Under the pieces are notes generated by a model that saw only the letters and a list, made by a program, of their open reading frames with translations, was not told where the DNA came from and did not search any database. Of a DNA stretch of 64,000 nt, positions 18,957 to 50,723 are shown one piece after another. The DNA is taken from positions 1,165 to 65,164 of the forward strand of contig JACNJW010000035.1 in NCBI GenBank assembly GCA_014382365.1, read 5' to 3'. The stretch's first letter is position 1; every line of letters starts with the position of its first letter. Both the position numbers and the translations under genes were made by a program. The DNA comes from SAR324 cluster bacterium. GTDB taxonomy: Bacteria; SAR324; NAC60-12.

Positions 18957-18985
18957 TTGACAAGTTTTTAACTTTACTATAAATT
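18957..18985 (+). promoter_or_regulatory. Candidate sigma70-type promoter (TTGACA, about 15-17 nt spacer, TATAAA) for the repeat-protein gene
   Basis: The two hexamers are read directly from the sequence. A strong SD (AGAGGAGA) precedes the ATG at 19153. Confidence 0.3.
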
Positions 18986-19152: not shown

Positions 19153-20151
19153 ATGGCAGAAGAAACAACAGGCGGTGAGCCGCAAGCAGGACCGGGACCG
19201 GATGCAGGTCCTCCTCCAGCTGGAGAAGTAAATATAGACGGAAACACACTTTCTTCAGATGGTGAAGGCAACATGAGCTTTGAAGGAGCTGATGGGGCAC
19301 ATGGTGAAATGAGTGCAGACGGATCTGCATCATTTCAAGGACCGGAAGGTTCAGGAATATCTGGAGAAATGAATGCTGATGGTTCAGGATCATGGACTGG
19401 TTCGGACGGTACTACTACTTCTTGGGAAGCCGGTGAAGCTCCTCCTAATGACTTGCCCGGAATGGAAGCACTTCCTGATATGGGAGAAATCGCCAACTCC
19501 CCTGAAGCAGTAGAAGCTTTTGGCGGCCCTCCTCCGGGAATGATGGATGGCGAACCTGGGATAGGTCCAATGCATGGAGACATGGAAGGAGTGACAGGTG
19601 ACGTATCTGGCTGCTCGGGTGACATGACTGGTGTAACTGGAGACGTGTCTGATTGTTCTGGCGATATGTCAGGATGCCAGGGTGATATGACTGGCTGCGA
19701 AGGCGACATGTCTGGAGTCACAGGTGATGTTTCAGATTGTTCTGGAGACATGACTGGTTGTCAGGGTGACGTATCTGGCTGCTCTGGCGACATGACTGGT
19801 TGCGAAGGTGACATGACTGGAGTCACTGGTGACATGGGGCCATACGCTGGTGACATGACTGACGTGACTGGTCCTCCACCAGCTGAAATGATGGGTGCTG
19901 AGGGCGACCAAGGAATGGGTGCCATGGATCAAGCATTTGCTGACCCAGGAATGGATCCTGGAATGGCTCCTCCAGGGGATGATCCAATGGGAGCTGCACT
20001 TGACGATTCTGCTGCGGCAAGTGATGCCGGTGGTGCAGCTGGAGGCCAAGGTCCAGGACCAGACCCAATGGCTGATATGCCTGACCCAGGGATGGATCCT
20101 GGAATGGATAAAGAGCCTGAAGACGACCAGGATGGTGGTGCTATAGGTTAA
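19153..20151 (+). CDS. Acidic Gly/Asp/Met/Cys/Pro-rich repetitive protein with 14 tandem heptads GD(M/V)xG(C/V)x; no recognisable signal peptide
   Basis: 332-aa ORF with its own promoter-like hexamers and a strong SD, followed by a hairpin. No family assigned. Confidence 0.55.
   Translation: MAEETTGGEPQAGPGPDAGPPPAGEVNIDGNTLSSDGEGNMSFEGADGAHGEMSADGSASFQGPEGSGISGEMNADGSGSWTGSDGTTTSWEAGEAPPNDLPGMEALPDMGEIANSPEAVEAFGGPPPGMMDGEPGIGPMHGDMEGVTGDVSGCSGDMTGVTGDVSDCSGDMSGCQGDMTGCEGDMSGVTGDVSDCSGDMTGCQGDVSGCSGDMTGCEGDMTGVTGDMGPYAGDMTDVTGPPPAEMMGAEGDQGMGAMDQAFADPGMDPGMAPPGDDPMGAALDDSAAASDAGGAAGGQGPGPDPMADMPDPGMDPGMDKEPEDDQDGGAIG
19576..19872 (+). repeat. 14 tandem copies of a 21-nt (7-codon) repeat inside the ORF, imperfect at the DNA level
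   Basis: Protein residues 142-240: GDMEGVT GDVSGCS GDMTGVT GDVSDCS GDMSGCQ GDMTGCE GDMSGVT GDVSDCS GDMTGCQ GDVSGCS GDMTGCE GDMTGVT GDMGPYA GDMTDVT. Copies differ mostly by synonymous substitutions. Confidence 0.8.
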
Positions 20152-20168
20152 TACCAGTTGAGATCATG

Positions 20169-20202
20169 TAAGTGGTGCACTAAATTTTTTTTGCACCACT
20201 TA
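20169..20202. terminator. Perfect 11-bp inverted repeat TAAGTGGTGCA-N12-TGCACCACTTA (hairpin; candidate intrinsic terminator/attenuator or regulator site)
   Basis: Read directly. Lies 18 nt after the stop of the repeat-protein gene and 120 nt before the ABC transporter gene. Loop and 3' flank are T-rich. Confidence 0.4.
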
Positions 20203-20321
20203 TTTGACTATTTTATTATCCCAAACAAACCCACAACATGTGTGCCATTTAGAGAGATACACACCTCTTCGTTTTTCTTCAAAAATACTAATCCTAAAAC
20301 CTTCTTAAAAATAAATCCACT

Positions 20322-22547
20322 ATGTTTGGCAAGAAAAAAAATGAAATTCTTGTTGATCACAGGCTGGCTTATTGCGTCTCTTTGACCACCAGAAGGCATG
20401 GAGTATATATAAATCGTGAGGAGGTAGAAAAAAAATTCCCTGAAGACGATCCTCCAAAAACCACTAGAGAATTAAATGCTTTTCTCGCAGAGAGAAAACT
20501 TGAAGCAAATCCAATAAATATTTCAACAGATGATTTCAAGGATAAAAATTTCGTATTTCCCTGTGCAGTTCCATTTACGAATGGTCAGTCAATCATAGCA
20601 TTAAGTGTACTGAAGAAAGACGATGATTTTTTTGTTAAGTTTCTTGACCCGTTAGACCCTCAAGCCAGGCAACAGGAAGTTGGAATAAATGAATTTGAGA
20701 AACTTTGGAAAAATATTGTTTTTTCAGTAAATGCACTAAGAGGTACTGAAAGTAAAGAAAGATCTTTTGATTTAGAATGGTTCCTTCCTGAATTATGGAA
20801 ATGCAGATATATGCTTCTTTGTGCTTTCATAATTTCTATTCTACTGAATATATTATCATTTACTCCTATAATTTTCATACAGATAGCCTTAGATAAAGTT
20901 GTAGGATATAAAGCTATTTCTACTTTATATGTACTGACAGCAGGAGTTGTTGTTGCACTAATATTTAATGCAATAATGGGTTTTATTCGCGATTACATTT
21001 TCAATTACATAGGAGATATACTTGAGTCCAGAATTGCAACTGATGTCTTTGACAAATTGCTGGGACTACCCTTAATAGAAGTTCAAGGAGAAAACATAAC
21101 TAAATTTGGGGGCTCAATGCAATCAATTACAGCCTTAAGGAATACTCTGGTCATGAGAGTGTTTAAGGTAGTTTTCGATTTGACTGCTGTACTCGTTTTT
21201 GTCCCAGTTATGTTTGCATATAATTTCCTGATGGGAATAATAGTGCTTGGATTTTCTCTGTTGATGGGTTTTAACAAAATCATTTTTAACAATATTGCAG
21301 GTAAATCTCCAGAAATACTAAACGAAGTGGAAAGTAGTAAAAACAGTCTGGTTCGCGAAACCCTGCATGGAATGACAATGCTCAAAGAGTTTGAAGAGGA
21401 AGAATCGGAGAGGAAAAATTGGCGAAAATCTGCTGCTGCTTCAATTATGTTAAGATCAAAGAAAAATCAGGTAAACAGCGCATCCACCGAGATTAACAGC
21501 TTTCTTCAACAAGCAATGACAATTGTAATTATCTTTACTGGAGTACAATTAGTTTTTGCTGAGCAGCTTTCTGCTGGTTCAATCATAGCGATTAATATGG
21601 TCGCTGGAAAATTAACCTCTCCTATTATTGCTGCAATCACATTATTTGGTGAAAGAACACAAATATTAAACCTTATCTCTCAAATAGGTGAGATTTGGAA
21701 TAAGGGAAAAGAACAATTGGGAGCAGGTGTTCACTCAGCCATAAGTGGAAAATATACTTTTGATAAAATTTCAATGAGTTTTGGAGATGTAAAAGCATTA
21801 AACAAAATATCTTTTGAGCTAACACCAAAATCCAAAGTTGGAGTAGTGGGTCCTACTGGAGCAGGCAAAAGCACATTGTTAAATATTCTTGCAGGAACAT
21901 TTCATCCTACAGAAGGTAGAATGGAAATAGATGGAGTAGGAATAAATCAATATGATTTATCATATTACCGTTCGCAGGTTATGCTGTTGGATAAGAAACC
22001 CATATTTTTTAAAGGTACAATAGAAGACAATATGTCCCGGGTGACACACAACATTGGTAAAAATGAACTTGCACACATTTTTGCTTTAACAGGATTTGAT
22101 GAACACCTACAAAAACTGCCTGAAGGTATTCATACAACAATTGATGAAACTGCCAGCCAATTGGCTGGTGGAGCTGCAAGCCTGCTTGCACTTTCAAGGG
22201 CTTTGCTTGCAAATCCAAAAGTCTTGCTTTTGGATGAGTTTGCAGATTCACTTGATATTGATACCAGAATTAAATTACAAGATAACTTTTCTACTATCGC
22301 CAGTGAAAGAACCGTGGTCGATGCTCAAAATGTAATAAGTCATGAATTAGATTCAATATCGAATTATGATAAAATTATTGTCTTAGATGGAGGTAAAGTA
22401 GTTGGACAAGGCAAGCATGAGCAGCTGCTTGTTAGTTGTGAAATTTATAGGCAAATGCTGGAAAAAGAAAAAAAATTGAGTGCAATTGGTGAATCGAAAA
22501 ATACAGAAACAAAAGAAAATCCTCCTGTGGATCAAGAAAATGCTTAG
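20322..22547 (+). CDS. Type I secretion/bacteriocin-type ABC exporter with N-terminal C39-peptidase-like domain, 6-TM exporter domain and C-terminal ATPase
   Basis: 741 aa. N-terminal ~150 aa resembles the C39 Cys-box (LAYCVSLTTRRHGVYINREEV). Then a type I exporter TMD. Walker A GPTGAGKST, Walker B LLLDEFADSLD, H-loop SHE. The signature motif reads LAGGAASL rather than LSGGQ. Confidence 0.75.
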   Translation: MFGKKKNEILVDHRLAYCVSLTTRRHGVYINREEVEKKFPEDDPPKTTRELNAFLAERKLEANPINISTDDFKDKNFVFPCAVPFTNGQSIIALSVLKKDDDFFVKFLDPLDPQARQQEVGINEFEKLWKNIVFSVNALRGTESKERSFDLEWFLPELWKCRYMLLCAFIISILLNILSFTPIIFIQIALDKVVGYKAISTLYVLTAGVVVALIFNAIMGFIRDYIFNYIGDILESRIATDVFDKLLGLPLIEVQGENITKFGGSMQSITALRNTLVMRVFKVVFDLTAVLVFVPVMFAYNFLMGIIVLGFSLLMGFNKIIFNNIAGKSPEILNEVESSKNSLVRETLHGMTMLKEFEEEESERKNWRKSAAASIMLRSKKNQVNSASTEINSFLQQAMTIVIIFTGVQLVFAEQLSAGSIIAINMVAGKLTSPIIAAITLFGERTQILNLISQIGEIWNKGKEQLGAGVHSAISGKYTFDKISMSFGDVKALNKISFELTPKSKVGVVGPTGAGKSTLLNILAGTFHPTEGRMEIDGVGINQYDLSYYRSQVMLLDKKPIFFKGTIEDNMSRVTHNIGKNELAHIFALTGFDEHLQKLPEGIHTTIDETASQLAGGAASLLALSRALLANPKVLLLDEFADSLDIDTRIKLQDNFSTIASERTVVDAQNVISHELDSISNYDKIIVLDGGKVVGQGKHEQLLVSCEIYRQMLEKEKKLSAIGESKNTETKENPPVDQENA

Positions 22548-22564
22548 GTTTGGGAAATAACTAA

Positions 22565-24313
22565 ATGACTGTAGCAACAAACACATTGAAACCCCAATTA
22601 TTAGTGCTGAAAAAAGGGGAGTATGTCTTTGAAGAAGGAGATGAAGCAATATTTGCTTATGTTCTCACTGAAGGCACAATTGAGATTGTTGCAATTATCA
22701 AAGGAGAAGAACTGGTTCTGGGAAAAGTAGAAAAAGGGACTATTTTTGGAGAAATGGCAATAATTGATGGCTTCCCGAGAAGCGCATCAGCACGTGCTGC
22801 CACTGCTTGTAAAGTACAAGAAGTTGGTCATAAAGAATTTCTTAATTATATTTCTAAAAAACCGGATGCTGCATTCCAAATAATGGGTAGACTATCTGGT
22901 TTTGTCAGGTCTGCTGATAAAAAAGCAAGTGAAAGTTTTTTGCTTCGTAAAACAGGTGTAAGTGAGGAAGAAGAAGATGGAAATAATGATAAGACCGACA
23001 TCGTTGCTGTACATAATTTTGAAGACACAGAGTCGATTTATGCCAGACCTCCTGCTAAACCTGTCATCGTCACTGCAGTCAGTTTGATCCTATTCATGTT
23101 GGTCATGACCCTCTGGGCATCTTTTTCTTTTGTTGATAAAACAGTTTCTGCACGTGGTAAATTCACAAATACTGCACCTAATATTGAAATTCAATCTACT
23201 GGTAGTTCAATTATTGAGGAATTAAATTTAGAACGAGGTCAATTCATTACAAAAGGAGAAACAGTTGCAAAACTTGATGGCACTGTTGTAAATGCAAATC
23301 TCAAAATTACCAGAGACAAAATATATGCAGTAAAAAATAAAATTTTGCGCCTTGAACTTCAAAAAATATCAATCTTACAAAAATCCTTAAATGAGGAATC
23401 TCTGGTTGAACTGGACAGTATTAACAAAGAAATATTAAACAGACACTTTGATGAATTTATGATTACAATGAAAACATTTTCTTCTGATCTTTTACGGTTA
23501 GAAACAGAAATTGTTTCAATGTCTGCAGATAAAGATTTAATTCGTGACCAGCTGGATATAAAAATTAAAATTGAAGATGGAAAAAAGAAGTTGTTTGAGA
23601 AAAATGTTGGTTCATTAATGGACACATTGAGTTCTACTGATCAAAGAATTTCTGTGAACCGTCAATTATTGTCAACAACTGGAAGTATCAAAAAACTCAA
23701 ATCAGAAAAAACAGCACTTGATGACCAGAGATCCTCTTATTTGACTGGAGAATTAGCAGGAATCGCAGTAGAACTTTCTTCTTTTAATGATCAATTACTT
23801 CAATTAAATGAGGAGTTAATTAAAAATGAATTAGAGAGAAGCAATTTATTTATTAAATCTCCAGTTGAAGGTGTTGTCTTAAATTTGCCTACAATTACGA
23901 TTGGATCTCTCATAAATAAAGGAGAGCCTATAGTAACATTAGTAAGAGCCGGATTACCCCTTGTTTTAGAGATTGATGTAGATCCAAAAGATGCCAGTGA
24001 TTTGTATAATGGGAATCCTGTTTCAGTCAAAATTGATGCCCTGCCATTTCAACAGTTTGGAGACCTGGCAGGAACCCTGGTCTATATTTCAGATGATACT
24101 GTAGAAGAATCCCTTCAGGGAGAATCCGGTGCTTTTTATCGTGGAAGAGTTCATGTTAAAGATTCTGAAATTATGGGATTGCCTGAAGAATTCGATTTAA
24201 CACCAGGTATGCTGGCAACTGCAGATTTAAAAGTAGGCAAAAGAAGATTGATTACATATTTTACAAATCCAATTCTAAAATCACTTTCAAGTGCTATGCG
24301 TGAACCGGATTAA
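22565..24313 (+). CDS. HlyD-family membrane fusion protein with N-terminal cyclic-nucleotide-binding (CAP-family) domain
   Basis: 582 aa. Residues ~15-120 carry cNMP-binding motifs (GEYVFEEGDEA...FGEMAIIDG..RSASARA). One TM (VIVTAVSLILFMLVMTLWASF). Long coiled-coil and a C-terminal HlyD beta-barrel region (...PGMLATADLKVGKRRL...). Confidence 0.7.
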   Translation: MTVATNTLKPQLLVLKKGEYVFEEGDEAIFAYVLTEGTIEIVAIIKGEELVLGKVEKGTIFGEMAIIDGFPRSASARAATACKVQEVGHKEFLNYISKKPDAAFQIMGRLSGFVRSADKKASESFLLRKTGVSEEEEDGNNDKTDIVAVHNFEDTESIYARPPAKPVIVTAVSLILFMLVMTLWASFSFVDKTVSARGKFTNTAPNIEIQSTGSSIIEELNLERGQFITKGETVAKLDGTVVNANLKITRDKIYAVKNKILRLELQKISILQKSLNEESLVELDSINKEILNRHFDEFMITMKTFSSDLLRLETEIVSMSADKDLIRDQLDIKIKIEDGKKKLFEKNVGSLMDTLSSTDQRISVNRQLLSTTGSIKKLKSEKTALDDQRSSYLTGELAGIAVELSSFNDQLLQLNEELIKNELERSNLFIKSPVEGVVLNLPTITIGSLINKGEPIVTLVRAGLPLVLEIDVDPKDASDLYNGNPVSVKIDALPFQQFGDLAGTLVYISDDTVEESLQGESGAFYRGRVHVKDSEIMGLPEEFDLTPGMLATADLKVGKRRLITYFTNPILKSLSSAMREPD

Positions 24314-25827: not shown

Positions 25828-27075
25828 TCAATGAAGAATTTGACTCATATTTAACATCGGCAAGAGGACTGCGAGTGCAATAAACCCGACAACGCCGCCC
25901 AGGACCAATATCAAGGCAGGTTGCAAAAGAGAGGTCAGGGCTTCCAGCAAGGTATTTACTTCTTCCTGCATTCGGTCTCCCACTTTTTCCAGCAGTTCAT
26001 CTACTCTTGCAGCTTCTTCGCCAATTGACACTACATGCCGAACGTATTCAGGAAAATAATCAATTCGTGACATTGCAGCAGAAAGAGGAACTCCCTTATC
26101 GTTCACATCAATAATCAGTAAATCCAGTTTATTTATAAATACTTTGTTAACTACAACATGTTTTGATATTTCGAGAGTAGTTTTTAAATCAACTCCACTT
26201 TTTAATAACGTACTAAGTGTCTGACAGTAGCGGGCAACCATGATTTTTATCCGCAGATTTTTCAGTAACGGGAGTTTCAGTTCAAGTTGGTCGCGCAGTG
26301 TACGACCGCGTTTACTGCGCAAAAATGTTATTGTTCCGGAGGCAATTACAAAAAATGCCAGCAACAGCATAAACCAATGATTTACCACAAAATCACTGAC
26401 ATTCATTAAAACCCGTGTTGGCAACGGCAGTGCCGCTTCCTGTTTTTCAAAGATGCGGGTGATTTTTGGTACTATAGTTGTGACCATAAATATTACTACT
26501 GCCACTCCAAAAACCATCATGAAAGCGGGATAAATGAGAGCACCCTGGATCTTAGAGTGTAAACGCTCCTGTGCTTCATAATAGTCTGCAAGCCTTCTCA
26601 TTATTGAACCAAGGTTGCCGGCATTTTCTCCGGAACGAACCATACTTACATACATTGCAGGGAAAACTTCCGGATGCATTTCCATTGCTCCAGCCAGCGA
26701 TACACCTTCCATCACCCGTCCACGTACTTCTGATAGTATGCTCTGAAAACCGGAATCCTCAGTCTGTGGAATTATTAATTGAAAAGCCTTGTCATAAGGA
26801 ATGGTGGCATCCAACAATACTTCTAACTGACGGGTAAATTGAGTTAACACCTTACCTGAAACACCTTTATTAAAAGATATTTTGGGCCAGTTTAATTTGC
26901 TGCTTTTTACAGCTCCAGCATGTTTTTTTCTGGTAAACCGGCTGGTTCGAATTTCCTTGGGAAAAAGTTCTTTAGAGCGTAAATATTGTCGAACTTCAGA
27001 TTCAGAAGCAGCATCTTTGGTTCCCTTGTGCAAAGTACCCTCACCATCAAAGGCCTGATAATTATAGATCGGCAT
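25828..27075 (-). CDS. gspF: Type II secretion system F / type IV pilus PilC family inner-membrane platform protein
   Basis: 415 aa. N-terminal YQAFDGEGTLHKG...EVRQYLRSKELFP motif and two T2SSF repeats. Confidence 0.75.
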   Translation of the reverse strand: MPIYNYQAFDGEGTLHKGTKDAASESEVRQYLRSKELFPKEIRTSRFTRKKHAGAVKSSKLNWPKISFNKGVSGKVLTQFTRQLEVLLDATIPYDKAFQLIIPQTEDSGFQSILSEVRGRVMEGVSLAGAMEMHPEVFPAMYVSMVRSGENAGNLGSIMRRLADYYEAQERLHSKIQGALIYPAFMMVFGVAVVIFMVTTIVPKITRIFEKQEAALPLPTRVLMNVSDFVVNHWFMLLLAFFVIASGTITFLRSKRGRTLRDQLELKLPLLKNLRIKIMVARYCQTLSTLLKSGVDLKTTLEISKHVVVNKVFINKLDLLIIDVNDKGVPLSAAMSRIDYFPEYVRHVVSIGEEAARVDELLEKVGDRMQEEVNTLLEALTSLLQPALILVLGGVVGFIALAVLLPMLNMSQILH

Positions 27076-27080
27076 TTTTG

Positions 27081-28358
27081 CTATTGCTTCAAATAAGTTT
27101 CCAGTGTTTCTTTTGACGCCTGTAGAGAGTTCATGTCGTTCGGTTCAACACGGACTTTTGAGGATTGTACTTTCCATTTCCATTGATTTTCTTGAGCATC
27201 ACTCATGATACCCTGCCGGCCTCGTCCGTCCGGCGCAAACTCTGCCTGAGCAAGCACATAACCTTGACCGGTACTTTTTTCACTTGCTTCCAATATTACA
27301 GATACATATTCATATTGTGGATTATCTGGTGCACCTGAAAGCTCACTGTTATGAATCTGCCTGGCTGCATTCATGGCCACACGGGCACGCTCCCTGGCGG
27401 TTCTTGCTTCCGGAGCAATAATACGAACCAACAAACGTGTCCGTGTTGAACTGCTCTGATCTTCGACCATCAAAACCTGATAGGGTGGAATAGGACTGTT
27501 ATTATTTGCAGTCCTGACTTTCTGTGCAGACAACTGACTCAACAGCAAAATCAGTAATGCCAGTAAAGAACCAATTGCTAAAAGAGACCAACGTTCCCAA
27601 CTATGTTTCATAAACGATAAAAACCTGGGCCAGCGAAGCATAAGCGGAGGAAAAAATGGGATGCTCCAGACAACAAGAAAAACTCCGGCAAGTGGTGAAA
27701 ATAAAGATATTCCCACTCCAAGAGAAATACTTAAAATTGAAAACAGCCAATCCATCACATAACCCTCAATATGTTTAACTTTTGGCTGTTCAGACTCTGC
27801 AGCTGAATCTCTAACCACAGTTCCACCACCATCAGCTAATGCTGGAGGTTCCGGAATACTTTCGGTAACAGGCGGCAGTTTCAAGGATTCTTCTTCAATA
27901 TCTTTGGCTGCCAGATATATTGAATTGCACCAGATATTTGCTGAATATAATGTTGACTCACAACTTGGATTTGGTACCGGTAAATTCTGTAATGCTGTGT
28001 GTAGTGGTAGAACCAAACTGTGCATTTTGCTGCAGGAAGAACAACAACTGGAACTATTTATTTTTACTTTTTGCTGCCCATTCTGCTGCAGGTCCAGCAA
28101 ACGTGATTGGTGTGATTTTTGTTGATATACAAAAGAATTTTCACCAAGTTTGTCCTTGAACAGGGCCATATTCCAGTACAGCATCTGCAAGGTTTGATAG
28201 TTGATGGCCTTTTTTGCCAAATCTTCAAAAAGAGAGAAAAACACCTCATTTTCATCAACTTCTTCCCCAGCAGATTTGCTGAGTAAATTCATTTTTTCGT
28301 CAAAATCTTTGGCAGTAACCCCAAATGCACGTAAATCTTCGGGAATGGAAACAGTCAT
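27081..28358 (-). CDS. Hypothetical membrane protein co-oriented with gspF (cytoplasmic N-domain, hydrophobic core, C-terminal domain)
   Basis: 425 aa, no confident family. Architecture loosely resembles GspL-like platform partners. Cys-cluster CCSSCS. Confidence 0.35.
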   Translation of the reverse strand: MTVSIPEDLRAFGVTAKDFDEKMNLLSKSAGEEVDENEVFFSLFEDLAKKAINYQTLQMLYWNMALFKDKLGENSFVYQQKSHQSRLLDLQQNGQQKVKINSSSCCSSCSKMHSLVLPLHTALQNLPVPNPSCESTLYSANIWCNSIYLAAKDIEEESLKLPPVTESIPEPPALADGGGTVVRDSAAESEQPKVKHIEGYVMDWLFSILSISLGVGISLFSPLAGVFLVVWSIPFFPPLMLRWPRFLSFMKHSWERWSLLAIGSLLALLILLLSQLSAQKVRTANNNSPIPPYQVLMVEDQSSSTRTRLLVRIIAPEARTARERARVAMNAARQIHNSELSGAPDNPQYEYVSVILEASEKSTGQGYVLAQAEFAPDGRGRQGIMSDAQENQWKWKVQSSKVRVEPNDMNSLQASKETLETYLKQ

Positions 28359-30799: not shown

Positions 30800-31786
30800 T
30801 TATTTTTTCCAAAGTAAATATACTTTGGCACTCATGCCTGCCCTCAATTTGTGATCCTTGTTGTCTGCTTTGACAAATATCGGGAAGCGTCCTGTTTCCG
30901 GATCTGCGGACCATGAAATTCGTTCTATTGTTCCAGAAAATTTGGTGTTCTGATAACCTGGTGTAGTAAAGACAACTGACTGCCCCTCACTTATATTAGG
31001 TAGATCTTCTTCTCCCACCTGTATTCCAATTTCCACCTGAGTGATGTCTATAATTTGAAAAAGAACTGCGCCTGGAGTGATCACTTCTCCCTCTTCAAAA
31101 AATTTTGCAGTAATAATTCCTGTAATTTTTGCTTTGATTTGAGTGTCTCCCAGAGTTTCCTCACGAAGTGCAACATCATGTTTAGAACGCTCCACCGCTA
31201 AACGAGCATTTTCCACTCCCAACTGAGCACGCTTAACTTCCTGCTCCGTTCGCTTTAAACCAAGTATAACGTTTTTTAGTGCCAATTCTCCTCGATTGTA
31301 CTGTAACTGCAATGACTCTAATTGTGAACGGGTAGAGGAACCTTGATTAAATAAAGTTTTTTCATCTAACAACCTGCGTTGAATGTCCTTCAAATTTGTT
31401 TCCAAATCTTTGACATTATTAACACTGACTGCAATTTGTACTTTTGCCAAATTGAGTTGTACTTCACGATCAGCCACACTATTTTCATTAACTTTGTGCT
31501 GCAATCGGGTTAATTCCAGTTGCCGTTTCTGTGTTTCATGATGGAGTGTGAGCAGCAACTGATCTTTGGCAACAGTTTGATTCTCTTTTACATGAATAGC
31601 CGTAACTCTTCCGCCAACACTGGCCTGAACTTTCAGGGTTTCTGCTGCCTGAATTATGCCGGAAAGAGAAATTGGATTCTGCACGTAATCTGCAGCTTTT
31701 GTTTCCAGTGAAGTTGCTGACGTTGACAAAGGTAAAACTAAAACTAGCGCTAATGAATTACAGAAAATTTTTAGACGAATAAACAT
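30800..31786 (-). CDS. Efflux/secretion periplasmic adaptor (HlyD/MFP family) with signal peptide
   Basis: 328 aa. Biotinyl-lipoyl-like hairpin, coiled-coil, beta-barrel pattern. Downstream of TolC on the same strand. Confidence 0.65.
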   Translation of the reverse strand: MFIRLKIFCNSLALVLVLPLSTSATSLETKAADYVQNPISLSGIIQAAETLKVQASVGGRVTAIHVKENQTVAKDQLLLTLHHETQKRQLELTRLQHKVNENSVADREVQLNLAKVQIAVSVNNVKDLETNLKDIQRRLLDEKTLFNQGSSTRSQLESLQLQYNRGELALKNVILGLKRTEQEVKRAQLGVENARLAVERSKHDVALREETLGDTQIKAKITGIITAKFFEEGEVITPGAVLFQIIDITQVEIGIQVGEEDLPNISEGQSVVFTTPGYQNTKFSGTIERISWSADPETGRFPIFVKADNKDHKLRAGMSAKVYLLWKK

Positions 31787-31823
31787 ATAACTCCTCTTTT
31801 AAAAATGTGAAAAATATTATTTT

Positions 31824-33398
31824 TTAATTCAACTCGTACTGCTCATAAAATCCTCCAGCCAAAGCCAGTAATTCTACTCGGACTTTCTCTTGACGAATCC
31901 GGATAAGGATTAGCTGCTGTTGTGCTTCCACCACATCCTGTTGATACTGTGAAATTCGATAGCTGGTACTTTTACCTAACTTGAAGCGCTCAATTTCATT
32001 ACGTAACTGATCTTGAGAAAGCAGACTCACTGCTGATGCAGTTGTTTGTTCCTTCTCAATCAAACTCAATGTACGTAATAAAGATTGTAAGTTGACATCC
32101 AACTGAGATTTACGATCCTCTATCTGCAGAATTAGCTGTTGCTGCTCCAGACGTTTGCGCTGGATGTTTTCACTGGTAGCCTGATCTCCCAATGGAACGT
32201 TCCAGGTCAGTGTTGCACTCAAACCATGAAGTTTGCTTTTAGCAAAATCGGCTGTTCCACCAAAAGCACTTTTGCTGTAACCATTTAAGATATAGGACAA
32301 GTTCAAGTCCAGGTTAGTCTTTTGTTTGTTAAATTCCTGTTCCAACTGCTGCCGATTTTGCTCCAATGTAGCTTTTGTCAATCCAATTTGGGAATCGTGC
32401 TGATAGATTTTTTCCAACAGCTCTGTAACATTCTCCGGAACGACAGACTTAGCTCCCGGCTTATCTACTGGAAAAAGACCAACAGGTAAGTTTTTCAAAT
32501 TAAGTGCTGCACGAACCTGATCTTCGACGCGCAGAGCGTCTAATCTTGACGAAAGCAGGCCCTGACGATTCCGCATCAATTGAGTTTCAGTAACCCTGAC
32601 TTCAGTTGAACTCAACATACCTGCCTCAAGTTTTGCCTGATTGTCACGTAATAATTTTTCTGACAAATCTACTGCTTTCTTTTTAACCTCAATAGTTTCT
32701 AATATTCCAACTAAATCCCAATATATTGATGCAACTTGCTTAAGCAGAGACAATTCCGTTTGACTGGTATTCAGCCTTCCTCTGGTCAGACCAATTTCCG
32801 CCAACCGGACTGGTATTTCGTTAAATTCTGTACCCCAATCCTGAAAAATTGGTATCGAAATGCTGCTGGTTAAGCTAACCGTGTTCAGTACATCTCCAGT
32901 AGTTCCAGCAGTAACATCACCACCTAGTTCCGCCTGCGAAAGAGTTGTTGATTTTTTGCTTTTTTCAGAATAAGTCAGGCCATAAGTCAAACCGCTGTCA
33001 GTACGCTGACTGTATGCAGAAGAAAAAGATATGCTGTTGGTACTGCTTCCGCAAAGTTCTGCGGGAGAACAACTTGAAGAGGCGGTTAGAGCTGGGGTAT
33101 TGGAGTAAGCAAAACTCGTTGTAATGCTGGGAGTGTTTCTTTCTTCTGCCGCATTCACGGCACGTTGTGCTGCATCGTTACCAAGTTTTGAGACCTTCAG
33201 CAAAATGCTCCTGTCAATTGCCAGCTGCAATACTAGTTTAAGCGGGACTTCCGCCATTTCGCGGCCGTCCACTGTTATCAAGTTAACCTGTTTCAACAGC
33301 TGGGCAGTTGCAGTCTGTGCATGAACTGGAGCTGTACCTGCAAAGACAAACAACAATAGAAAAAACATTTGTATTTTTATTAATTTTTTCAAATACAT
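31824..33398 (-). CDS. tolC: TolC-family outer membrane channel
   Basis: 524 aa. Signal peptide, two coiled-coil/beta repeat halves typical of outer-membrane efflux proteins. Confidence 0.7.
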   Translation of the reverse strand: MYLKKLIKIQMFFLLLFVFAGTAPVHAQTATAQLLKQVNLITVDGREMAEVPLKLVLQLAIDRSILLKVSKLGNDAAQRAVNAAEERNTPSITTSFAYSNTPALTASSSCSPAELCGSSTNSISFSSAYSQRTDSGLTYGLTYSEKSKKSTTLSQAELGGDVTAGTTGDVLNTVSLTSSISIPIFQDWGTEFNEIPVRLAEIGLTRGRLNTSQTELSLLKQVASIYWDLVGILETIEVKKKAVDLSEKLLRDNQAKLEAGMLSSTEVRVTETQLMRNRQGLLSSRLDALRVEDQVRAALNLKNLPVGLFPVDKPGAKSVVPENVTELLEKIYQHDSQIGLTKATLEQNRQQLEQEFNKQKTNLDLNLSYILNGYSKSAFGGTADFAKSKLHGLSATLTWNVPLGDQATSENIQRKRLEQQQLILQIEDRKSQLDVNLQSLLRTLSLIEKEQTTASAVSLLSQDQLRNEIERFKLGKSTSYRISQYQQDVVEAQQQLILIRIRQEKVRVELLALAGGFYEQYELN

Positions 33399-33715: not shown

Positions 33716-34120
33716 ATGGCCGACAAAACAACTTTATCTGAAGAAGACTGGCAAGAGCGGTTAACTCCGGAACAATTTGAAATCTGTAGAAAAAAAGGTA
33801 CTGAAAGACCATTCAGTGGAGATTATGTTGAGACAAAAAACAAAGGCACATACCATTGTTCCTGTTGCGGAAATGAATTATTTAAATCTGAAGAAAAATT
33901 TGATTCTGGTTCCGGCTGGCCCAGTTTTTGGGATTCAATAGGTGAAGACAAGGTACGAACACAGGAGGATCATAGTTTGTTCAGGCAGAGGACGGAAGTA
34001 CTTTGCAGTCAGTGTGACGCACATTTAGGCCACGTTTTTGAGGATGGCCCACTGCCGACAGGTTTACGCTATTGCATAAATTCTGTTTCACTCGTTTTTG
34101 AGGAAGACAAGGAATCTTGA
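33716..34120 (+). CDS. msrB: Peptide-methionine (R)-S-oxide reductase
   Basis: 134 aa. Two CxxC zinc motifs and GWPSF catalytic motif. Confidence 0.85.
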
Positions 34121-34188
34121 TCTGGCGCCCTTTTCCTGTCAGAATAAGAAGATCGACTTAACTATTCTAAATTACAATTTGAAGCAAA

Positions 34189-34733
34189 TGAAAATCTGTT
34201 CCGATGTGGATGGAGTAATCCTGGATTACATTCAGGGATTTATTGATTTCACAAAAAGAGAAAATATCCCCTACACACACAATCCAGAACTTTATGGTGT
34301 CATCCGGAATTTTCCCGACAACTTTCAGGTCAGGGATCAATTTCATGCAGGAGATTCATTGTGCCGTTTAAACTTTATTACCGGCTCACTCGAAACATTG
34401 AATTTACTGGCCAGTGTGCATGAATTACATCTCGTTACTGCTTTGGAACCTGAACAGTCTCTAAAACGTGCTGAGAATTTAAAAACTCTTAACTATGACT
34501 CTTTACAGTGTGTTGGTGATCAACGCAAAGAACAAATTATAGTCGAAGAGCTTCAGCCGGATGTAATGATTGAAGATCGTCCGGAGTTGATCGAAGCATT
34601 TCATCTTGCTGGGCTAAAAGTAATTTTTCCCGACTGGCATCCCTACACAAAAGGAATGGAGCGTTTTGCAACTCCTTTTTCCTGCTGGGAGGAAGTTCCG
34701 GATTTGCTCAAACAAGCTGTTCATCCAAATTAA
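34189..34733 (+). CDS. HAD-superfamily 5'(3')-deoxyribonucleotidase (NT5C-like)
   Basis: Motif I DVDGVILDY as in the NT5C family DxDGVxxDF. Start taken at the internal ATG because the track ORF start overlaps msrB. Confidence 0.5.
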
Positions 34734-49688: not shown

Positions 49689-50723
49689 TTATTTTTCACT
49701 TATCACTGCAAATAGTTCTTCCCACAAATCTGCTGATTTATCTGCATCAAGATCTGCTAAGGTTCCACCCAGTAATTTTAAATGTTTCCGGAGTTCCTGG
49801 ACAGAGCGGATTTTTAAACTCAAAGTAAGGTCGTCATTTTCAAAATAAGGATCGCTCTCAAGTGTTATCCTTGGAGCTAAATTAAGGCGCTGAAGTCGCT
49901 GTTCAAAGCGCTTCCGCATTGCACTCAATTCCGGATAGCGCAAGGTTTCCAGTTGCTGTTTCAGTAAACGATACCGAACAGGACTTTGCAGACTGGAACG
50001 TCCAAGAATTTCCAAAATTTCCGGAAGTTTTAATACTTCAGCCACAGAAATCTGCAATAAGCGACTTACTTCATCCAACAGCTGAAGCAAATTACGCCAC
50101 TTTTTTCCAGTGACTTCCATTCTTGTGCAGAGTGCAGTTACGTCCGGAAGAACACTCTGCGAAAATTTCAGCAGGGGCAACAAATCTTCACAACCCAAAT
50201 TCAGTAATGCTTTCTGCAGAGTCATTGTTTTTAAAACAATATTTAAATCCAACAATTGACGAACAAGTCTAACTGAAGGTTTCAGGCCAAATTTAGGGAA
50301 AACCTGTGCGGCAATTTCTGCGTTGCTAAAATCCAAATCATGCAGCTGCTTCAAAATTCTGCCTACATGCACGCCGGAATAATTACTTGAAGACGTATTT
50401 AAAGTTTCCAGGCGAACATATACGACTTCCCGTTCCGGCATAGATTCGGAAATAATTACGCACGGAATTGAGATTTTCTCTTTGTTCTGCAGGGAAGTTG
50501 GGCCGTTGTTTGCGAGCCAGGAAATGCGCTTAAAACCATCAATGACTCGGTATTTTTTTCCTGGAACTGCCTGTACCAGTAGAGGATAAAGGACTCCATT
50601 CTGCTGAAGTGAATCCCGAACTGCAGTTGTGAGCACCCGAGGGAACCAGTTGTATTGGAGATCTTTTAACTCAATTTGGTCAAGATGGAGAGTGGAAAAC
50701 TCCCATTCAGGTTGTATTTTCAT
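49689..50723 (-). CDS. ParB/Srx-fold (DGQHR-like) domain protein of unknown function
   Basis: 344 aa. N-terminal LYPLLVQAVPGKKYRVIDGFKRISW resembles the ParB N-domain/DGQHR motif with the GERRxRA arginines replaced. Confidence 0.35.
   Translation of the reverse strand: MKIQPEWEFSTLHLDQIELKDLQYNWFPRVLTTAVRDSLQQNGVLYPLLVQAVPGKKYRVIDGFKRISWLANNGPTSLQNKEKISIPCVIISESMPEREVVYVRLETLNTSSSNYSGVHVGRILKQLHDLDFSNAEIAAQVFPKFGLKPSVRLVRQLLDLNIVLKTMTLQKALLNLGCEDLLPLLKFSQSVLPDVTALCTRMEVTGKKWRNLLQLLDEVSRLLQISVAEVLKLPEILEILGRSSLQSPVRYRLLKQQLETLRYPELSAMRKRFEQRLQRLNLAPRITLESDPYFENDDLTLSLKIRSVQELRKHLKLLGGTLADLDADKSADLWEELFAVISEK

What the first reader, a model, noticed from the sequence alone, without database searches (positions are those of the whole stretch)
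22565..24313. Cyclic-nucleotide-binding domain fused to an HlyD-type membrane fusion protein
The first ~120 residues carry the CAP/CNB hallmarks: beta-roll glycines (GEYVFEEGDEA), FGEMA, and an RSA(S)A phosphate-binding cassette. They precede the single TM and the periplasmic HlyD coiled-coil.

This puts a cytoplasmic second-messenger sensor on the adaptor of a tripartite exporter. Secretion could therefore be gated by cAMP or cGMP. Such fusions are uncommon and, to my knowledge, functionally uncharacterised.
Basis: partly seen in the sequence, partly recalled or inferred. Interest (0 to 1): 0.7.

Follow-up and report, generated by a model that had tools for sequence, protein, structure and literature searches.

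The report
Cyclic-nucleotide sensor fused to secretion adaptor
A marine SAR324 bacterium carries a protein-export pump whose adaptor subunit has a cAMP/cGMP-type sensor domain on its cytoplasmic end; it sits in a conserved, unstudied three-gene module with an unusual ATPase and an extremely acidic candidate cargo protein, so export may be switched by a small signalling molecule.

Summary
ORF 22565-24313 (+) is one 582-aa protein. It has a CRP-like cyclic-nucleotide-binding (CNB) domain with an intact phosphate-binding cassette (G62-E63 ... R72-S73-A74), a disordered acidic linker, one TM helix, and a HlyD-type type I secretion (T1SS) adaptor.

It is not a one-off. About 43 of the best 150 50%-identity cluster representatives share the fusion. 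They come from SAR324, Alpha-, Beta- and Gammaproteobacteria and Magnetococcales. Databases name them only as "HlyD family adaptor", and I found no functional study.

1. A HlyB-like ABC gene always lies directly upstream. It has a non-catalytic C39-like domain. None of 30 partner ABCs has the LSGGQ signature.
2. About 20 loci also encode a hyper-acidic, almost Lys/Arg-free, Gly/Asp/Pro/Met-rich repeat protein with a conserved C-terminal region. This is the likely cargo (window 19153-20151).
3. Related exporters carry the same CNB module as a separate 114-129-aa gene. This suggests the domain acts by docking onto another component.

The most likely function is ligand-gated secretion of the acidic protein. 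The ligand is unproven: the CNB domain of Nostoc HetC binds ppGpp, not cAMP. No cyclase lies in the window. I rate this a new variant of a known kind.

The parts
18957..18985 (+). Promoter-like site (TTGACA-17-TAAATT) upstream of the candidate cargo gene
   Evidence: Consensus scan, 10 of 12 matches. This is weak evidence: the region has no more such sites than shuffled sequence. A strong Shine-Dalgarno (GGAGA) lies 7 nt before the ATG at 19153.
19153..20151 (+). Candidate secreted cargo. 332-aa hyper-acidic protein (net charge -66, 1 Lys, 0 Arg; Gly 23%, Asp 13%, Pro 10%, Met 9%) with GDMTGCx/GDVSGCx heptad repeats and a conserved C-terminal region ending ...DDQDGGAIG.
   Evidence: Translation, composition and 21/42/84-nt tandem repeats. 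No Pfam or NCBIfam family. Homologous or analogous K/R-free acidic genes lie next to the ABC+CNB-MFP pair in about 20 loci. Only one was found in 344 kb of loci scored as non-fusion, and that locus (L047) is itself a fusion locus cut by the contig end. The C-terminal 100 aa align across these loci.
20161..20209 (+). Stable hairpin followed by a U-rich tract, between the cargo and ABC genes. Possible attenuating terminator.
   Evidence: RNA fold -21.2 kcal/mol, z-score -5.5, with 0 of 200 shuffles folding as well. The terminator scan missed it because the loop exceeds 8 nt. Its function is inferred.
20322..22547 (+). HlyB/LssB-like T1SS ABC exporter, 741 aa. It has an N-terminal C39-like domain without the catalytic Cys, six-helix ABC_membrane domain (165-432) and an NBD with atypical motifs (LAGGA instead of LSGGQ; Q-loop Gln replaced by Lys). 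Walker A, the Walker B Glu and the H-loop His are kept.
   Evidence: Pfam ABC_membrane and ABC_tran. NCBIfam LssB 361 bits and HlyB 354 bits, both far below their cutoffs of 693 and 726. Residue-level alignment to E. coli HlyB 7sgr/8dck over residues 15-707. Motif table of 30 partner ABCs.
22565..24313 (+). The reported gene: CNB-domain / HlyD-type membrane fusion protein, 582 aa
22592..22942 (+). Cytoplasmic CNB domain (residues about 10-126): beta-roll plus B and C helices, with no N-terminal alpha-A helix
   Evidence: Pfam E 9.1e-19. AF2 N-domain model. Foldseek best hits are cAMP-bound MtbCRP, GlxR, Clr, E. coli CRP and the Bd1971 cNMP domain. The ORF cannot extend upstream.
22745..22792 (+). 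Phosphate-binding cassette F61-GEMAIIDGFPRSASA-76 (G62, E63, R72, A74 invariant in family alignments)
22943..23056 (+). Acidic linker predicted as disordered (residues 127-164, ...SEEEEDGNNDKTD...) plus the juxtamembrane segment
   Evidence: pLDDT below 50 for residues 127-157 in the full-length model. The region is variable in family alignments.
23057..23125 (+). Single transmembrane helix (residues 165-187)
   Evidence: Hydrophobic stretch PVIVTAVSLILFMLVMTLWASF. AF2 helix 165-187.
23126..24310 (+). Periplasmic HlyD-type adaptor part (barrel and lipoyl-like strands plus long alpha-helical hairpin, residues 240-426)
   Evidence: TIGR01843 above cutoff. Foldseek hits: E. coli HlyD 5c21/5c22 (TM 0.76 on the target), LipC 5nen (0.85), EmrA 4tko.
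31824..33398 (-). TolC-like outer-membrane factor, 524 aa. Candidate third component (not adjacent).
   Evidence: Pfam OEP E 2.9e-21. In L009, L010 and L013 an OEP gene lies inside the CNB-MFP operon. Its assignment to this system in the window is inferred only.

Best explanation
The gene encodes the membrane fusion (adaptor) subunit of a type I secretion system. Its cytoplasmic N-terminus is a CRP-like cyclic-nucleotide-binding domain.

It works with the HlyB-like ABC protein encoded directly upstream and a TolC-like outer-membrane factor. Together they probably export the hyper-acidic, almost Lys/Arg-free Gly/Asp/Met/Pro-rich repeat protein encoded at 19153-20151, recognised through its conserved C-terminal region.

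The CNB domain is tethered to the membrane by a flexible acidic linker of about 35 residues. In HlyD, the same position holds the small cytoplasmic segment that contacts HlyB and is needed for substrate engagement and TolC recruitment.

The most likely mechanism is as follows. Binding of a small nucleotide ligand changes how the tethered domain docks on, or dimerises beside, the cytoplasmic parts of the ABC protein (its C39-like domain or its atypical NBD). This permits or blocks assembly and export. cAMP or cGMP is most likely, given the canonical Gly-Glu ... Arg-Ser-Ala cassette.

Shown here: the architecture, the intact and conserved cassette, the conserved three-gene module, and the existence of unfused versions. 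Inferred: ligand identity, the docking target, the direction of regulation, and that the acidic protein is the cargo.
For: Architecture and fold.

Selection on the ligand site:
- G62, E63, R72 and A74 are invariant in alignments of 25 and 30 diverse fusion proteins sharing 24-47% identity.
- The Gly-Glu and Arg are kept in about 39-40 of 43 50%-identity representatives.

Spread of the fusion:
- 42 fused ORFs occur in the held loci.
- Source names include SAR324, Magnetospira sp. QH-2 (a complete 4.02-Mb genome record), Rhodospirillales, Magnetococcales, Gammaproteobacteria and Burkholderiaceae.

Operon:
- An ABC gene lies immediately upstream on the same strand in all 37 loci where the contig leaves room.
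- An OEP gene is in the operon in L009, L010 and L013.

Cargo:
- K/R-free acidic ORFs flank the pair in about 20 loci, against essentially none in 344 kb of control loci.
- Their C-terminal 100 residues share a pattern: GGMDALDGAL, then GGDPAGGDMPPP, then DDPMGAALD, then an acidic tail.
- None has an N-terminal signal peptide or a double-glycine leader.

Docking model:
- Loci L049, L051, L052, L056, L058 and L072 encode ABC(s), a plain HlyD and a stand-alone 114-129-aa CNB protein.
- That protein has nearly the same cassette (GGIFGEMALIDxxPRMA) and is 50% identical to the window domain over 66 residues.

Role of the adaptor's cytoplasmic segment in the HlyA system:
- bioRxiv 10.1101/2025.05.27.656419 describes the charged motif R34EKDE38, which contacts HlyB and is essential for TolC recruitment.
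- The review PMC8277102 states that the cytoplasmic domains of T1SS adaptors are essential for substrate recognition and complex assembly.
Against: - No ligand binding was measured.
- The one characterised CNB domain on a related exporter, Nostoc HetC, did not respond to cAMP and bound ppGpp with Kd about 59 uM (PMC10986499).
- No cyclase or phosphodiesterase lies in the 64-kb window.
- The domain lacks the N-terminal alpha-A helix found in many CNB domains.
- The PBC loop has low model confidence in the full-length prediction.
- The cargo is assigned only from gene neighbourhood and composition. Four loci with at least 3 kb of flank (L012, L030, L033, L038) show no such gene.
- The SAR324 cargo contains Cys. 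To my own knowledge, Cys is uncommon in classical T1SS substrates.
- The outer-membrane factor is not adjacent in the window.
Confidence: 0.5

Rival explanations
1. The architecture and regulatory role are as above, but the ligand is not a cyclic mononucleotide. The domain would sense ppGpp or another metabolite and so couple export to the stringent response or nutrient status.
For: The HetC N-terminal cNMP-type domain bound ppGpp (Kd 59 uM) and GTP/GDP. It did not respond to cAMP, cCMP, c-di-GMP or 2-oxoglutarate, and it is required in vivo (PMC10986499). According to that paper, CRP/FNR-type domains bind many effectors. No cyclase lies in the window.
Against: The cassette here is the canonical cNMP type (FGEMA...PRSASA) and aligns residue for residue with PKA and Clr cassettes. 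The Glu and Arg that contact the ribose and the cyclic phosphate in CRP and PKA (my own knowledge: CRP E72 and R82) are invariant across the family. The best fold matches are cAMP-bound CRP-family structures. I did not compare the HetC cassette directly.
Confidence: 0.2
2. The CNB domain is a ligand-independent structural module. It would serve as a dimerisation or docking piece that organises the cytoplasmic face of the six adaptor protomers around the ABC dimers, with no signalling role.
For: The long C helix (100-129) resembles the CRP dimerisation helix. A few family members have lost the cassette (P0143, P0216; partly P0162 and P0168) yet keep the fusion. The partner ABCs have atypical NBDs that might need an extra structural partner.
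Against: The ligand-contacting Gly-Glu and Arg-x-Ala are kept in about 90% of representatives across 24-47% overall identity. This is hard to explain without ligand binding. The stand-alone CNB proteins keep the same cassette.
Confidence: 0.1
3. The ABC/MFP pair is not a protein secretion system for the neighbouring acidic protein. It would export something else, such as a small molecule, a peptide or another protein. The acidic protein would then be a cytoplasmic or regulatory partner.
For: The ABC scores far below every curated T1SS ABC cutoff and lacks LSGGQ. The cargo has no RTX nonapeptides. Four loci lack the acidic gene.
Against: The MFP passes the T1SS-specific TIGR01843 cutoff. The ABC aligns end to end with HlyB, including the C39-like domain that binds substrate in the HlyA system. 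The acidic genes are linked in about 20 loci from different lineages and share a conserved C-terminal region, which is where T1SS signals lie.
Confidence: 0.1
4. The fusion is an assembly or annotation artefact: two genes joined by a sequencing error.
For: None found. One related locus (L006) does carry frameshifts, but they break the genes apart rather than join them.
Against: The same continuous ORF occurs on more than 40 independent contigs from different projects and lineages.
Confidence: 0.01

Closest known systems
E. coli HlyB-HlyD-TolC haemolysin type I secretion system (PDB 7sgr, 8dck; HlyD 5c21/5c22)
   Same: - The gene order is cargo, then ABC, then MFP.
- The MFP has an N-terminal cytoplasmic segment, one TM helix and a long periplasmic alpha-hairpin (TIGR01843 above cutoff; Foldseek TM 0.76 to HlyD).
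- The ABC aligns with HlyB over residues 15-707, including a C39-like domain without the catalytic Cys.
- There is a hairpin between the cargo and transporter genes.
   Different: [quoted passage not shown] Here it is a complete 120-residue CNB domain plus an acidic linker.
- The ABC lacks LSGGQ and the Q-loop Gln, and scores about half the HlyB/LssB family cutoffs.
- The candidate cargo is a K/R-free low-complexity acidic protein with no RTX nonapeptides.
Nostoc PCC 7120 HetC, a peptidase-containing ABC exporter with an N-terminal cNMP-type domain (PMC10986499)
   Same: A CNB-superfamily domain sits on the cytoplasmic side of a T1SS/PCAT-type exporter. It is required for function in vivo. This sets the precedent for small-ligand control of such exporters.
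   Different: - In HetC the domain is on the ABC protein, not the adaptor.
- HetC has an active C39 peptidase.
- No MFP gene lies nearby.
- The ligand found was ppGpp, not cAMP.
- I did not compare the HetC cassette with this one.
NCBIfam TIGR03896 'cyc_nuc_ocin' (bacteriocin-type transport-associated protein)
   Same: It shows a recurrent link between CNB domains and HlyD/ABC peptide exporters. The window domain and the stand-alone CNB of L058 both give weak hits to TIGR03896.
   Different: - The scores are far below cutoff (18.3 and 35.8 bits against 161).
- The window MFP scores 54.6 against 156.2 for the NHLP HlyD model TIGR03794.
- TIGR03896 proteins are separate polypeptides; that they carry two CNB domains is my own recollection of the model description.
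CRP/CAP-family cAMP receptor domains (E. coli CRP 1i5z, M. tuberculosis CRP 4a2u, GlxR 4cyd, Clr 7pza) and the Bd1971 cNMP domain (6hq3)
   Same: These are the best sequence and fold matches for residues 10-129: beta-roll, PBC helix, and the Gly-Glu and Arg-Ser-Ala positions, followed by a long C helix.
   Different: - There is no DNA-binding or enzymatic output domain. The output is a membrane-anchored secretion adaptor.
- There is no N-terminal alpha-A helix.
- Ligand specificity cannot be read from the sequence.

Membership tests
Cyclic-nucleotide-binding domain (Pfam PF00027, CAP/CNB superfamily) | Profile match above the curated threshold | tested here: met
   67.7 bits against a gathering score of 27.5, E 9.1e-19, residues 14-98 covering profile positions 3-88 of 89.
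Cyclic-nucleotide-binding domain (Pfam PF00027, CAP/CNB superfamily) | Eight-stranded beta-roll with conserved glycines, followed by B/C (hinge and lid) helices | tested here: met
   The AF2 model shows strands 12-87, a PBC helix 63-68 and helices 89-98 and 100-129, with pLDDT about 90 over residues 11-110. Foldseek probability is 1.00 to CRP-family structures. G18, G25 and G37 are conserved.
Cyclic-nucleotide-binding domain (Pfam PF00027, CAP/CNB superfamily) | Phosphate-binding cassette: Gly-Glu and Arg-(Ser/Thr)-Ala | tested here: met
   G62-E63 and R72-S73-A74 align to the PKA and Clr cassettes. They are invariant in alignments A1 and A3 and kept in about 39-40 of 43 representatives.
Cyclic-nucleotide-binding domain (Pfam PF00027, CAP/CNB superfamily) | N-terminal alpha-A helix (N-terminal helical bundle of many CNB domains) | tested here: not met
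   The first beta strand starts at residue 12, and an in-frame stop lies directly before the start codon. The stand-alone relatives are equally short.
Cyclic-nucleotide-binding domain (Pfam PF00027, CAP/CNB superfamily) | Actual binding of cAMP or cGMP | not testable with these tools
   This needs ITC or DSF on the purified domain. HetC shows that such domains can bind other ligands.
HlyD-family type I secretion periplasmic adaptor (NCBIfam TIGR01843) | Profile match above the curated cutoff | tested here: met
   257.6 bits against 208.65, residues 168-580 covering profile positions 5-421 of 422.
HlyD-family type I secretion periplasmic adaptor (NCBIfam TIGR01843) | Single N-terminal TM anchor and periplasmic barrel/lipoyl plus long alpha-hairpin fold | tested here: met
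   TM helix 165-187 and helices 240-426. Foldseek hits: HlyD 5c21/5c22, LipC 5nen, EmrA 4tko.
HlyD-family type I secretion periplasmic adaptor (NCBIfam TIGR01843) | Encoded next to its ABC partner | tested here: met
   The ABC gene ends 17 nt upstream. The same holds in all 37 related loci with room on the contig.
HlyD-family type I secretion periplasmic adaptor (NCBIfam TIGR01843) | TolC-like outer-membrane partner | tested here: inconclusive
   An OEP gene lies 7.5 kb away at 31824-33398 (-), next to another MFP. An OEP gene is inside the operon in L009, L010 and L013.
HlyB / LssB-type T1SS ABC exporter (NCBIfam TIGR01846, TIGR03375) | Profile match above the curated cutoff | tested here: not met
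   354.1 against 725.55 bits and 361.1 against 693.1 bits for the window ABC. Partner ABCs from L008, L011 and L058 also fall below every cutoff.
HlyB / LssB-type T1SS ABC exporter (NCBIfam TIGR01846, TIGR03375) | N-terminal C39-like domain lacking the catalytic Cys | tested here: met
   Alignment to HlyB starts at residue 15 (HlyB residue 11). By extrapolating that register upstream, using my own knowledge that HlyB Tyr9 occupies the C39 Cys position, the catalytic position corresponds to H13 or R14. The nearby C18 is Ser in L003.
HlyB / LssB-type T1SS ABC exporter (NCBIfam TIGR01846, TIGR03375) | Canonical NBD motifs (Walker A, Q-loop Gln, LSGGQ, Walker B Asp-Glu, H-loop His) | tested here: not met
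   Walker A, Walker B Asp-Glu and the H-loop His are present. The signature is LAGGA and the Q-loop Gln is Lys. None of 30 partner ABCs has LSGGQ.
RTX-type T1SS substrate (for the candidate cargo) | GGxGxDxUx nonapeptide repeats | tested here: not met
   The repeats are GDMTGCx heptads, encoded by 21-nt units and their 42- and 84-nt multiples. No Pfam family matches.
RTX-type T1SS substrate (for the candidate cargo) | Acidic protein, no N-terminal signal peptide, uncleaved C-terminal secretion signal | tested here: inconclusive
   Net charge is -66, there is no signal peptide, and the C-terminal 100 residues are conserved across lineages. Secretion itself was not tested.
NHLP bacteriocin export system (TIGR03794 / 03796 / 03797 with TIGR03896) | Profile matches above the curated cutoffs | tested here: not met
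   MFP 54.6 against 156.2 bits. ABC 210 against 853 and 198 against 709 bits. CNB 18.3 against 161 bits.
HetC-type peptidase-containing ABC exporter with a CNB domain | CNB domain on the ABC polypeptide and an active C39 Cys | tested here: not met
   The CNB domain is on the MFP. The ABC N-terminus has no CNB domain and no Cys at the catalytic position.

The most novel reading that the evidence does not exclude
This clade may not be a conventional ATP-driven T1SS. It could instead be a ligand-gated conduit for polyanionic proteins.

The supporting pieces are these. The partner ABC proteins have lost the LSGGQ signature in all 30 cases, and many have also lost the H-loop His, the Q-loop Gln or the Walker B Glu, although each locus has only one ABC gene. 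The cargos carry essentially no Lys or Arg and have net charges of -18 to -118.

Export could therefore be driven largely by the inside-negative membrane potential. ATP binding, rather than hydrolysis, together with occupancy of the CNB domain, would act as gates. The logic resembles CFTR, an ABC exporter fold turned into a cAMP-pathway-regulated anion channel with one degenerate site (my own knowledge), but applied to protein export.
Probability: 0.12. Interest if true: 0.85.

Novelty: new variant of a known kind. Interest (0 to 1): 0.6.

Why it matters
As far as I know, how type I secretion is switched after translation is largely unaddressed; that is my own impression rather than a finding of the literature searches. 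A ligand-binding domain built into the adaptor, at the position where HlyD's cytoplasmic segment contacts HlyB and is needed for TolC recruitment, would be a direct switch and is easy to test.

The family is abundant in marine metagenomes. The SAR324 form alone gave 558 hits at E <= 1e-5, and all 120 listed were near-identical (87-100%) 90%-identity clusters. The family also occurs in a complete genome record, Magnetospira sp. QH-2, which I believe is a cultured strain.

The linked observations raise two further questions. First, how does an ABC exporter work without its signature motif? Second, what do ocean bacteria do with secreted, Lys/Arg-free proteins rich in Met, Asp, Cys and His? Their composition would suit metal binding, but that is speculation.

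Tried and rejected
1. The genome-contig scan with the single protein returned only SAR324 relatives and one spurious CNB hit.
2. The 25-sequence alignment A1 was too diverse for the metagenome scan. The 8-sequence alignment A2 worked.
3. The Foldseek search with the full-length model returned only adaptor proteins. A separate N-domain model was needed to see the CNB fold.
4. The terminator scan missed the intergenic hairpin because its loop exceeds 8 nt. Direct folding found it.
5. I looked for a cyclase or phosphodiesterase by running Pfam on all ORFs of at least 150 aa in the window. None was found.
6. Pfam and NCBIfam scans of eight candidate cargos gave only compositional noise, such as Cementoin and UBM.
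7. Seven literature searches for the fusion, or for SAR324 type I secretion, found nothing on point except HetC.
8. I considered mapping the invariant C-helix Arg115 onto CRP Arg123 or Thr127/Ser128. The helix register against CRP is ambiguous, so I make no claim.
9. I considered horizontal transfer, because GC dips to 0.35 over the ABC and MFP genes and the flanks differ between SAR324 genomes. The evidence is suggestive only, since amino-acid composition could explain the dip.
10. I ran no further search on the cargo family or the ABC family.
Full report
**1.

- ORF 22565-24313 (+) is a single 582-codon frame.
- The upstream ABC gene stops at 22547, and an in-frame TAA at 22562-22564 lies directly before the ATG. 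The protein therefore cannot be longer at its N-terminus, and no frameshift needs to be invoked.
- Pfam finds cNMP_binding at residues 14-98 (E 9.1e-19, 67.7 bits against a gathering score of 27.5), plus HlyD_3 and HlyD_D23 near the C-terminus.
- NCBIfam TIGR01843, the type I secretion HlyD adaptor model, matches residues 168-580 at 257.6 bits, above its cutoff of 208.65.
In phmmer alignments to solved structures, F61-G-E-M-A...P-R72-S-A falls exactly on the phosphate-binding cassettes of PKA ('FGELALLYNAPRAAT') and Clr 7pza ('FGEMALLDGQPRSA').

**2. Structure**

- An AlphaFold2 model of residues 1-143, built on 30 family sequences, has pLDDT about 90 over residues 11-110. It shows the beta-roll, a short cassette helix (63-68) and two helices (89-98 and 100-129).
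- Its best matches in the PDB are cAMP-bound CRP-family proteins (M. tuberculosis CRP, GlxR, Clr, E. coli CRP) and the cNMP domain of Bd1971.
- The full-length model (mean pLDDT 79) adds a disordered acidic linker (127-157), a TM helix (165-187) and a periplasmic part with a very long helical hairpin.
- That periplasmic part matches E. coli HlyD (5c21/5c22), LipC and EmrA.
- The domain lacks the N-terminal alpha-A helix of many CNB domains.

**3. Organism and spread**

- An identical protein is named in NCBI as a HlyD family adaptor from a SAR324 cluster bacterium. Hundreds of variants about 88% identical occur in marine assemblies. Six SAR324 genome loci were recovered.
- A search of 1.84 billion 50%-identity representatives returned 26,315 HlyD-like hits. 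About 43 of the best 150 are full-length fusions, 25-77% identical to the window protein.
- Source names for members include a Gammaproteobacteria MAG, many Burkholderiaceae MAGs, Rhodospirillales, Magnetococcales and Magnetospira sp. QH-2, a complete 4.02-Mb genome record.
- All are annotated simply as HlyD adaptors. One UniRef name begins 'Cyclic nucleotide-binding' (truncated in the output).
- The architecture is therefore neither rare nor invisible to databases. I found no paper that studies it, bearing in mind that the library covers only open-access papers and bioRxiv.

**4. The ligand site is under selection**

- In alignments of 25 and 30 diverse fusions, the cassette Gly, Glu, Arg and Ala are invariant. 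Those sets were partly chosen by a motif search.
- I therefore also examined all 43 representatives. The Gly-Glu and Arg are kept in about 39-40 of them. They are clearly lost in P0143 and P0216 and diverged in P0162 and P0168.

**5. Conserved operon**

In Magnetospira the two genes overlap by 4 nt.
- The window ABC (20322-22547) aligns with E. coli HlyB (7sgr/8dck) from residue 15 to 707. This includes the N-terminal C39-like domain, but there is no Cys at the catalytic position.
- It scores only about half the curated cutoffs of the HlyB and LssB families. Partner ABCs from other lineages behave the same way.
- An OEP/TolC-type gene is part of the operon in L009, L010 and L013. In the window, the nearest one is 7.5 kb away at 31824-33398 (-), beside a second, ordinary MFP.

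**6. An unexpected feature of the ABC partners**

- Against HlyB, the window protein keeps Walker A (GPTGAGKST), Walker B (LLLDE), the D-loop and the H-loop His. It has LAGGA in place of LSGGQ and Lys in place of the Q-loop Gln.
- Across 30 partner ABCs, none has LSGGQ. Variants include LAGAG, LSQGN, LSQSH, LSHGN, LPNSY, LSTGL and LTAGQ.
- About half lack the H-loop His. One clade has Asp-Asp in Walker B. One protein (L041) has lost Walker A.
- Each locus has a single ABC gene, so both ATP sites of a homodimer would be non-canonical.
- I cannot say whether these proteins hydrolyse ATP. Of the family, the SAR324 form is the least degenerate.

**7. A candidate cargo**

- Directly upstream of the ABC gene, the window encodes a 332-aa protein (19153-20151). 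It has a net charge of -66, one Lys and no Arg, and 23% Gly, 13% Asp, 10% Pro and 9% Met.
- It carries GDMTGCx/GDVSGCx heptad repeats and has no signal peptide.
- The gene has a strong Shine-Dalgarno sequence and a promoter-like site. A stable hairpin with a U-rich tail follows it (-21.2 kcal/mol, z -5.5). This could lower read-through into the transporter genes; I recall a similar arrangement between hlyA and hlyB (my own knowledge).
- Proteins of the same kind lie beside the ABC/CNB-MFP pair in about 20 loci from different lineages:
  - EGDMPPP repeats in Magnetospira;
  - DGQPPM repeats in a Magnetococcales MAG;
  - EGEHPEGEM repeats in L013;
  - Met-rich (up to 25% Met) forms in L011, L018 and L023.
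- With the same filter, 344 kb of control loci gave one hit, and that locus (L047) proved to be a truncated fusion locus. The rest of the 64-kb window gave none.
- The last 100 residues align across lineages into a shared pattern: GGMDALDGAL, then GGDPAGGDMPPP, then DDPMGAALD, then an acidic tail ending in DDVV, GGAIG or AGMG. Type I signals lie at the C-terminus.
- No Pfam family covers these proteins.
- Four loci with adequate flanks lack such a gene (L012, L030, L033, L038).

**8. Unfused versions**

- Loci L049, L051, L052, L056, L058 and L072 encode one or two ABC proteins, a plain HlyD adaptor (TIGR01843, 395.8 bits in L058) and then a separate 114-129-aa CNB protein.
- This small protein has nearly the same cassette (GGIFGEMALIDxxPRMA) and the same short N-terminus. 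The L058 protein is 50% identical to the window domain over 66 residues.
- Their ABCs also lack LSGGQ; they have LPRGI, MPTSL and LPSSF.
- A module that works both as a free protein and as a tethered domain most likely acts by docking on another component, not by pushing on the TM helix. The disordered linker in the window protein fits this.

**9. How it most likely works**

- In the haemolysin system, the adaptor's small cytoplasmic N-terminus contacts HlyB. It carries a charged motif essential for TolC recruitment (bioRxiv 10.1101/2025.05.27.656419). Reviews state that these regions are essential for substrate recognition and assembly, although their structure is poorly known (PMC8277102).
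- Here that position is occupied by a CRP-like ligand sensor.
- I therefore propose that ligand occupancy changes the docking or pairing of the tethered CNB domains on the cytoplasmic face of the ABC protein. This would license or block export of the acidic protein.
- The HlyB/HlyD inner-membrane complex is a trimer of HlyB dimers with associated HlyD protomers; the count of six adaptors per complex is my own knowledge. The CRP-like C helix suggests that these could form three CNB pairs. That step is pure inference.
- The direction of control and the physiological signal are unknown.

**10. Ligand caveat**

- The cassette is of the canonical cNMP type, which favours cAMP or cGMP.
- However, the CNB-type domain of Nostoc HetC, the closest studied case of such a domain on a related exporter, showed no response to cAMP and bound ppGpp with a Kd of 59 uM (PMC10986499).
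- No cyclase or phosphodiesterase is encoded among the ORFs of at least 150 aa in the window. The rest of the genome could not be examined.

**11. Comparison and novelty**

- The adaptor part is a bona fide member of the T1SS HlyD family.
- The sensor is a bona fide CNB-superfamily domain, minus the alpha-A helix.
- The ABC works like HlyB but fails the family cutoffs and the motif test.
- The cargo is not an RTX protein.
- The system is not an NHLP bacteriocin exporter or a HetC-type PCAT, because all relevant profile scores are far below cutoff.
- A link between CNB domains and such exporters is already known in two other forms: on the ABC protein (HetC) and as separate proteins (TIGR03896). 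I therefore rate this a new variant of a known kind.
- It is of real interest because it is widespread in marine metagenomes, experimentally untouched, and directly testable.

**12. The boldest reading not excluded**

Degenerate ABC sites, a ligand sensor and Lys/Arg-free polyanionic cargos may together mean a gated, membrane-potential-assisted protein conduit rather than a classical ATP-driven pump. I give this roughly a one in eight chance.

Noticed in passing
window 19153-20151 (+); also L003 6224-7591, L008 11933-13339, L009 6755-7525, L011 6715-7665, L013 305-1165, L023 1349-2977 and 3217-4554, L035 1628-2626: This is an undescribed family of hyper-acidic, essentially Lys/Arg-free repeat proteins rich in Gly, Asp, Glu, Pro, Met and Ala. 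Net charges run from -18 to -118 and Met reaches 25%. Some members also carry Cys or His. They share a conserved C-terminal region and match no Pfam family. The composition would suit metal binding, which is speculation.
   Followed up: partly
window 20322-22547 (+), NBD residues about 490-710; 30 partner ABCs in L001-L047: All ABC partners of CNB-adaptors lack the LSGGQ signature. Many also lack the Q-loop Gln, the H-loop His or the Walker B Glu, although each locus has only one ABC gene. The SAR324 proteins also carry a 4-residue insertion (DAQN) before the H-loop.
   Followed up: partly
L049, L051, L052, L056, L058, L072; L064, L066, L093: Stand-alone 114-141-aa CNB proteins carry the same cassette as the fused domain. 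In the first six loci they are encoded downstream of ABC plus plain-HlyD operons. In L064, L066 and L093, four such genes lie in tandem.
   Followed up: partly
L006 7811-11726 (SAR324 FRAM18_bin343, 863-kb contig): In this genome, which is otherwise syntenic with the window, the ABC gene is split across at least five frame segments and the CNB-MFP gene into two. Neighbouring genes are intact. The cause is either pseudogenisation or homopolymer errors in a long-read assembly.
   Followed up: partly
L011 2013-2963 and 6715-7665: Two identical copies of the 316-aa acidic Met-rich gene flank a histidine-kinase and response-regulator (GerE-type) pair just upstream of the ABC/CNB-MFP genes.
   Followed up: no
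L008 19142-21710 (-) (Magnetospira sp. QH-2): An 868-aa protein combining metallo-beta-lactamase/Apyc1-like, cNMP_binding and hemerythrin domains lies 7.4 kb from the CNB-MFP gene. It could be a cNMP-degrading or cNMP-sensing enzyme. A PAS histidine kinase lies closer.
   Followed up: no
L009 3684-4151 (-): A MamC (magnetosome protein) gene lies about 3.5 kb upstream of the acidic protein and T1SS module in the Magnetococcales MAG. This is probably coincidental, but two of the named hosts are magnetotactic lineages.
   Followed up: no
window 30800-33398 (-): A second MFP (328 aa; HlyD_D23, HlyD_3) and a TolC-like OEP gene (524 aa) form a pair with no adjacent inner-membrane transporter gene. 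The pair is conserved in L006.
   Followed up: no
window 20001-24000: GC drops to 0.35-0.36 over the ABC and CNB-MFP genes, against about 0.43 in the flanks. The cassette sits in different neighbourhoods in the window/L006, L003 and L004. This suggests mobility, but amino-acid composition could also explain it.
   Followed up: partly
window 27081-28358 (-), 49689-50723 (-), 62863-63750 (-), 34098-34733 (+): One 425-aa protein carries only a C-terminal DUF4875 domain and lies next to a T2SS/pilus F-type gene (25828-27075). Three further ORFs of 211-344 aa have no Pfam match.
   Followed up: no
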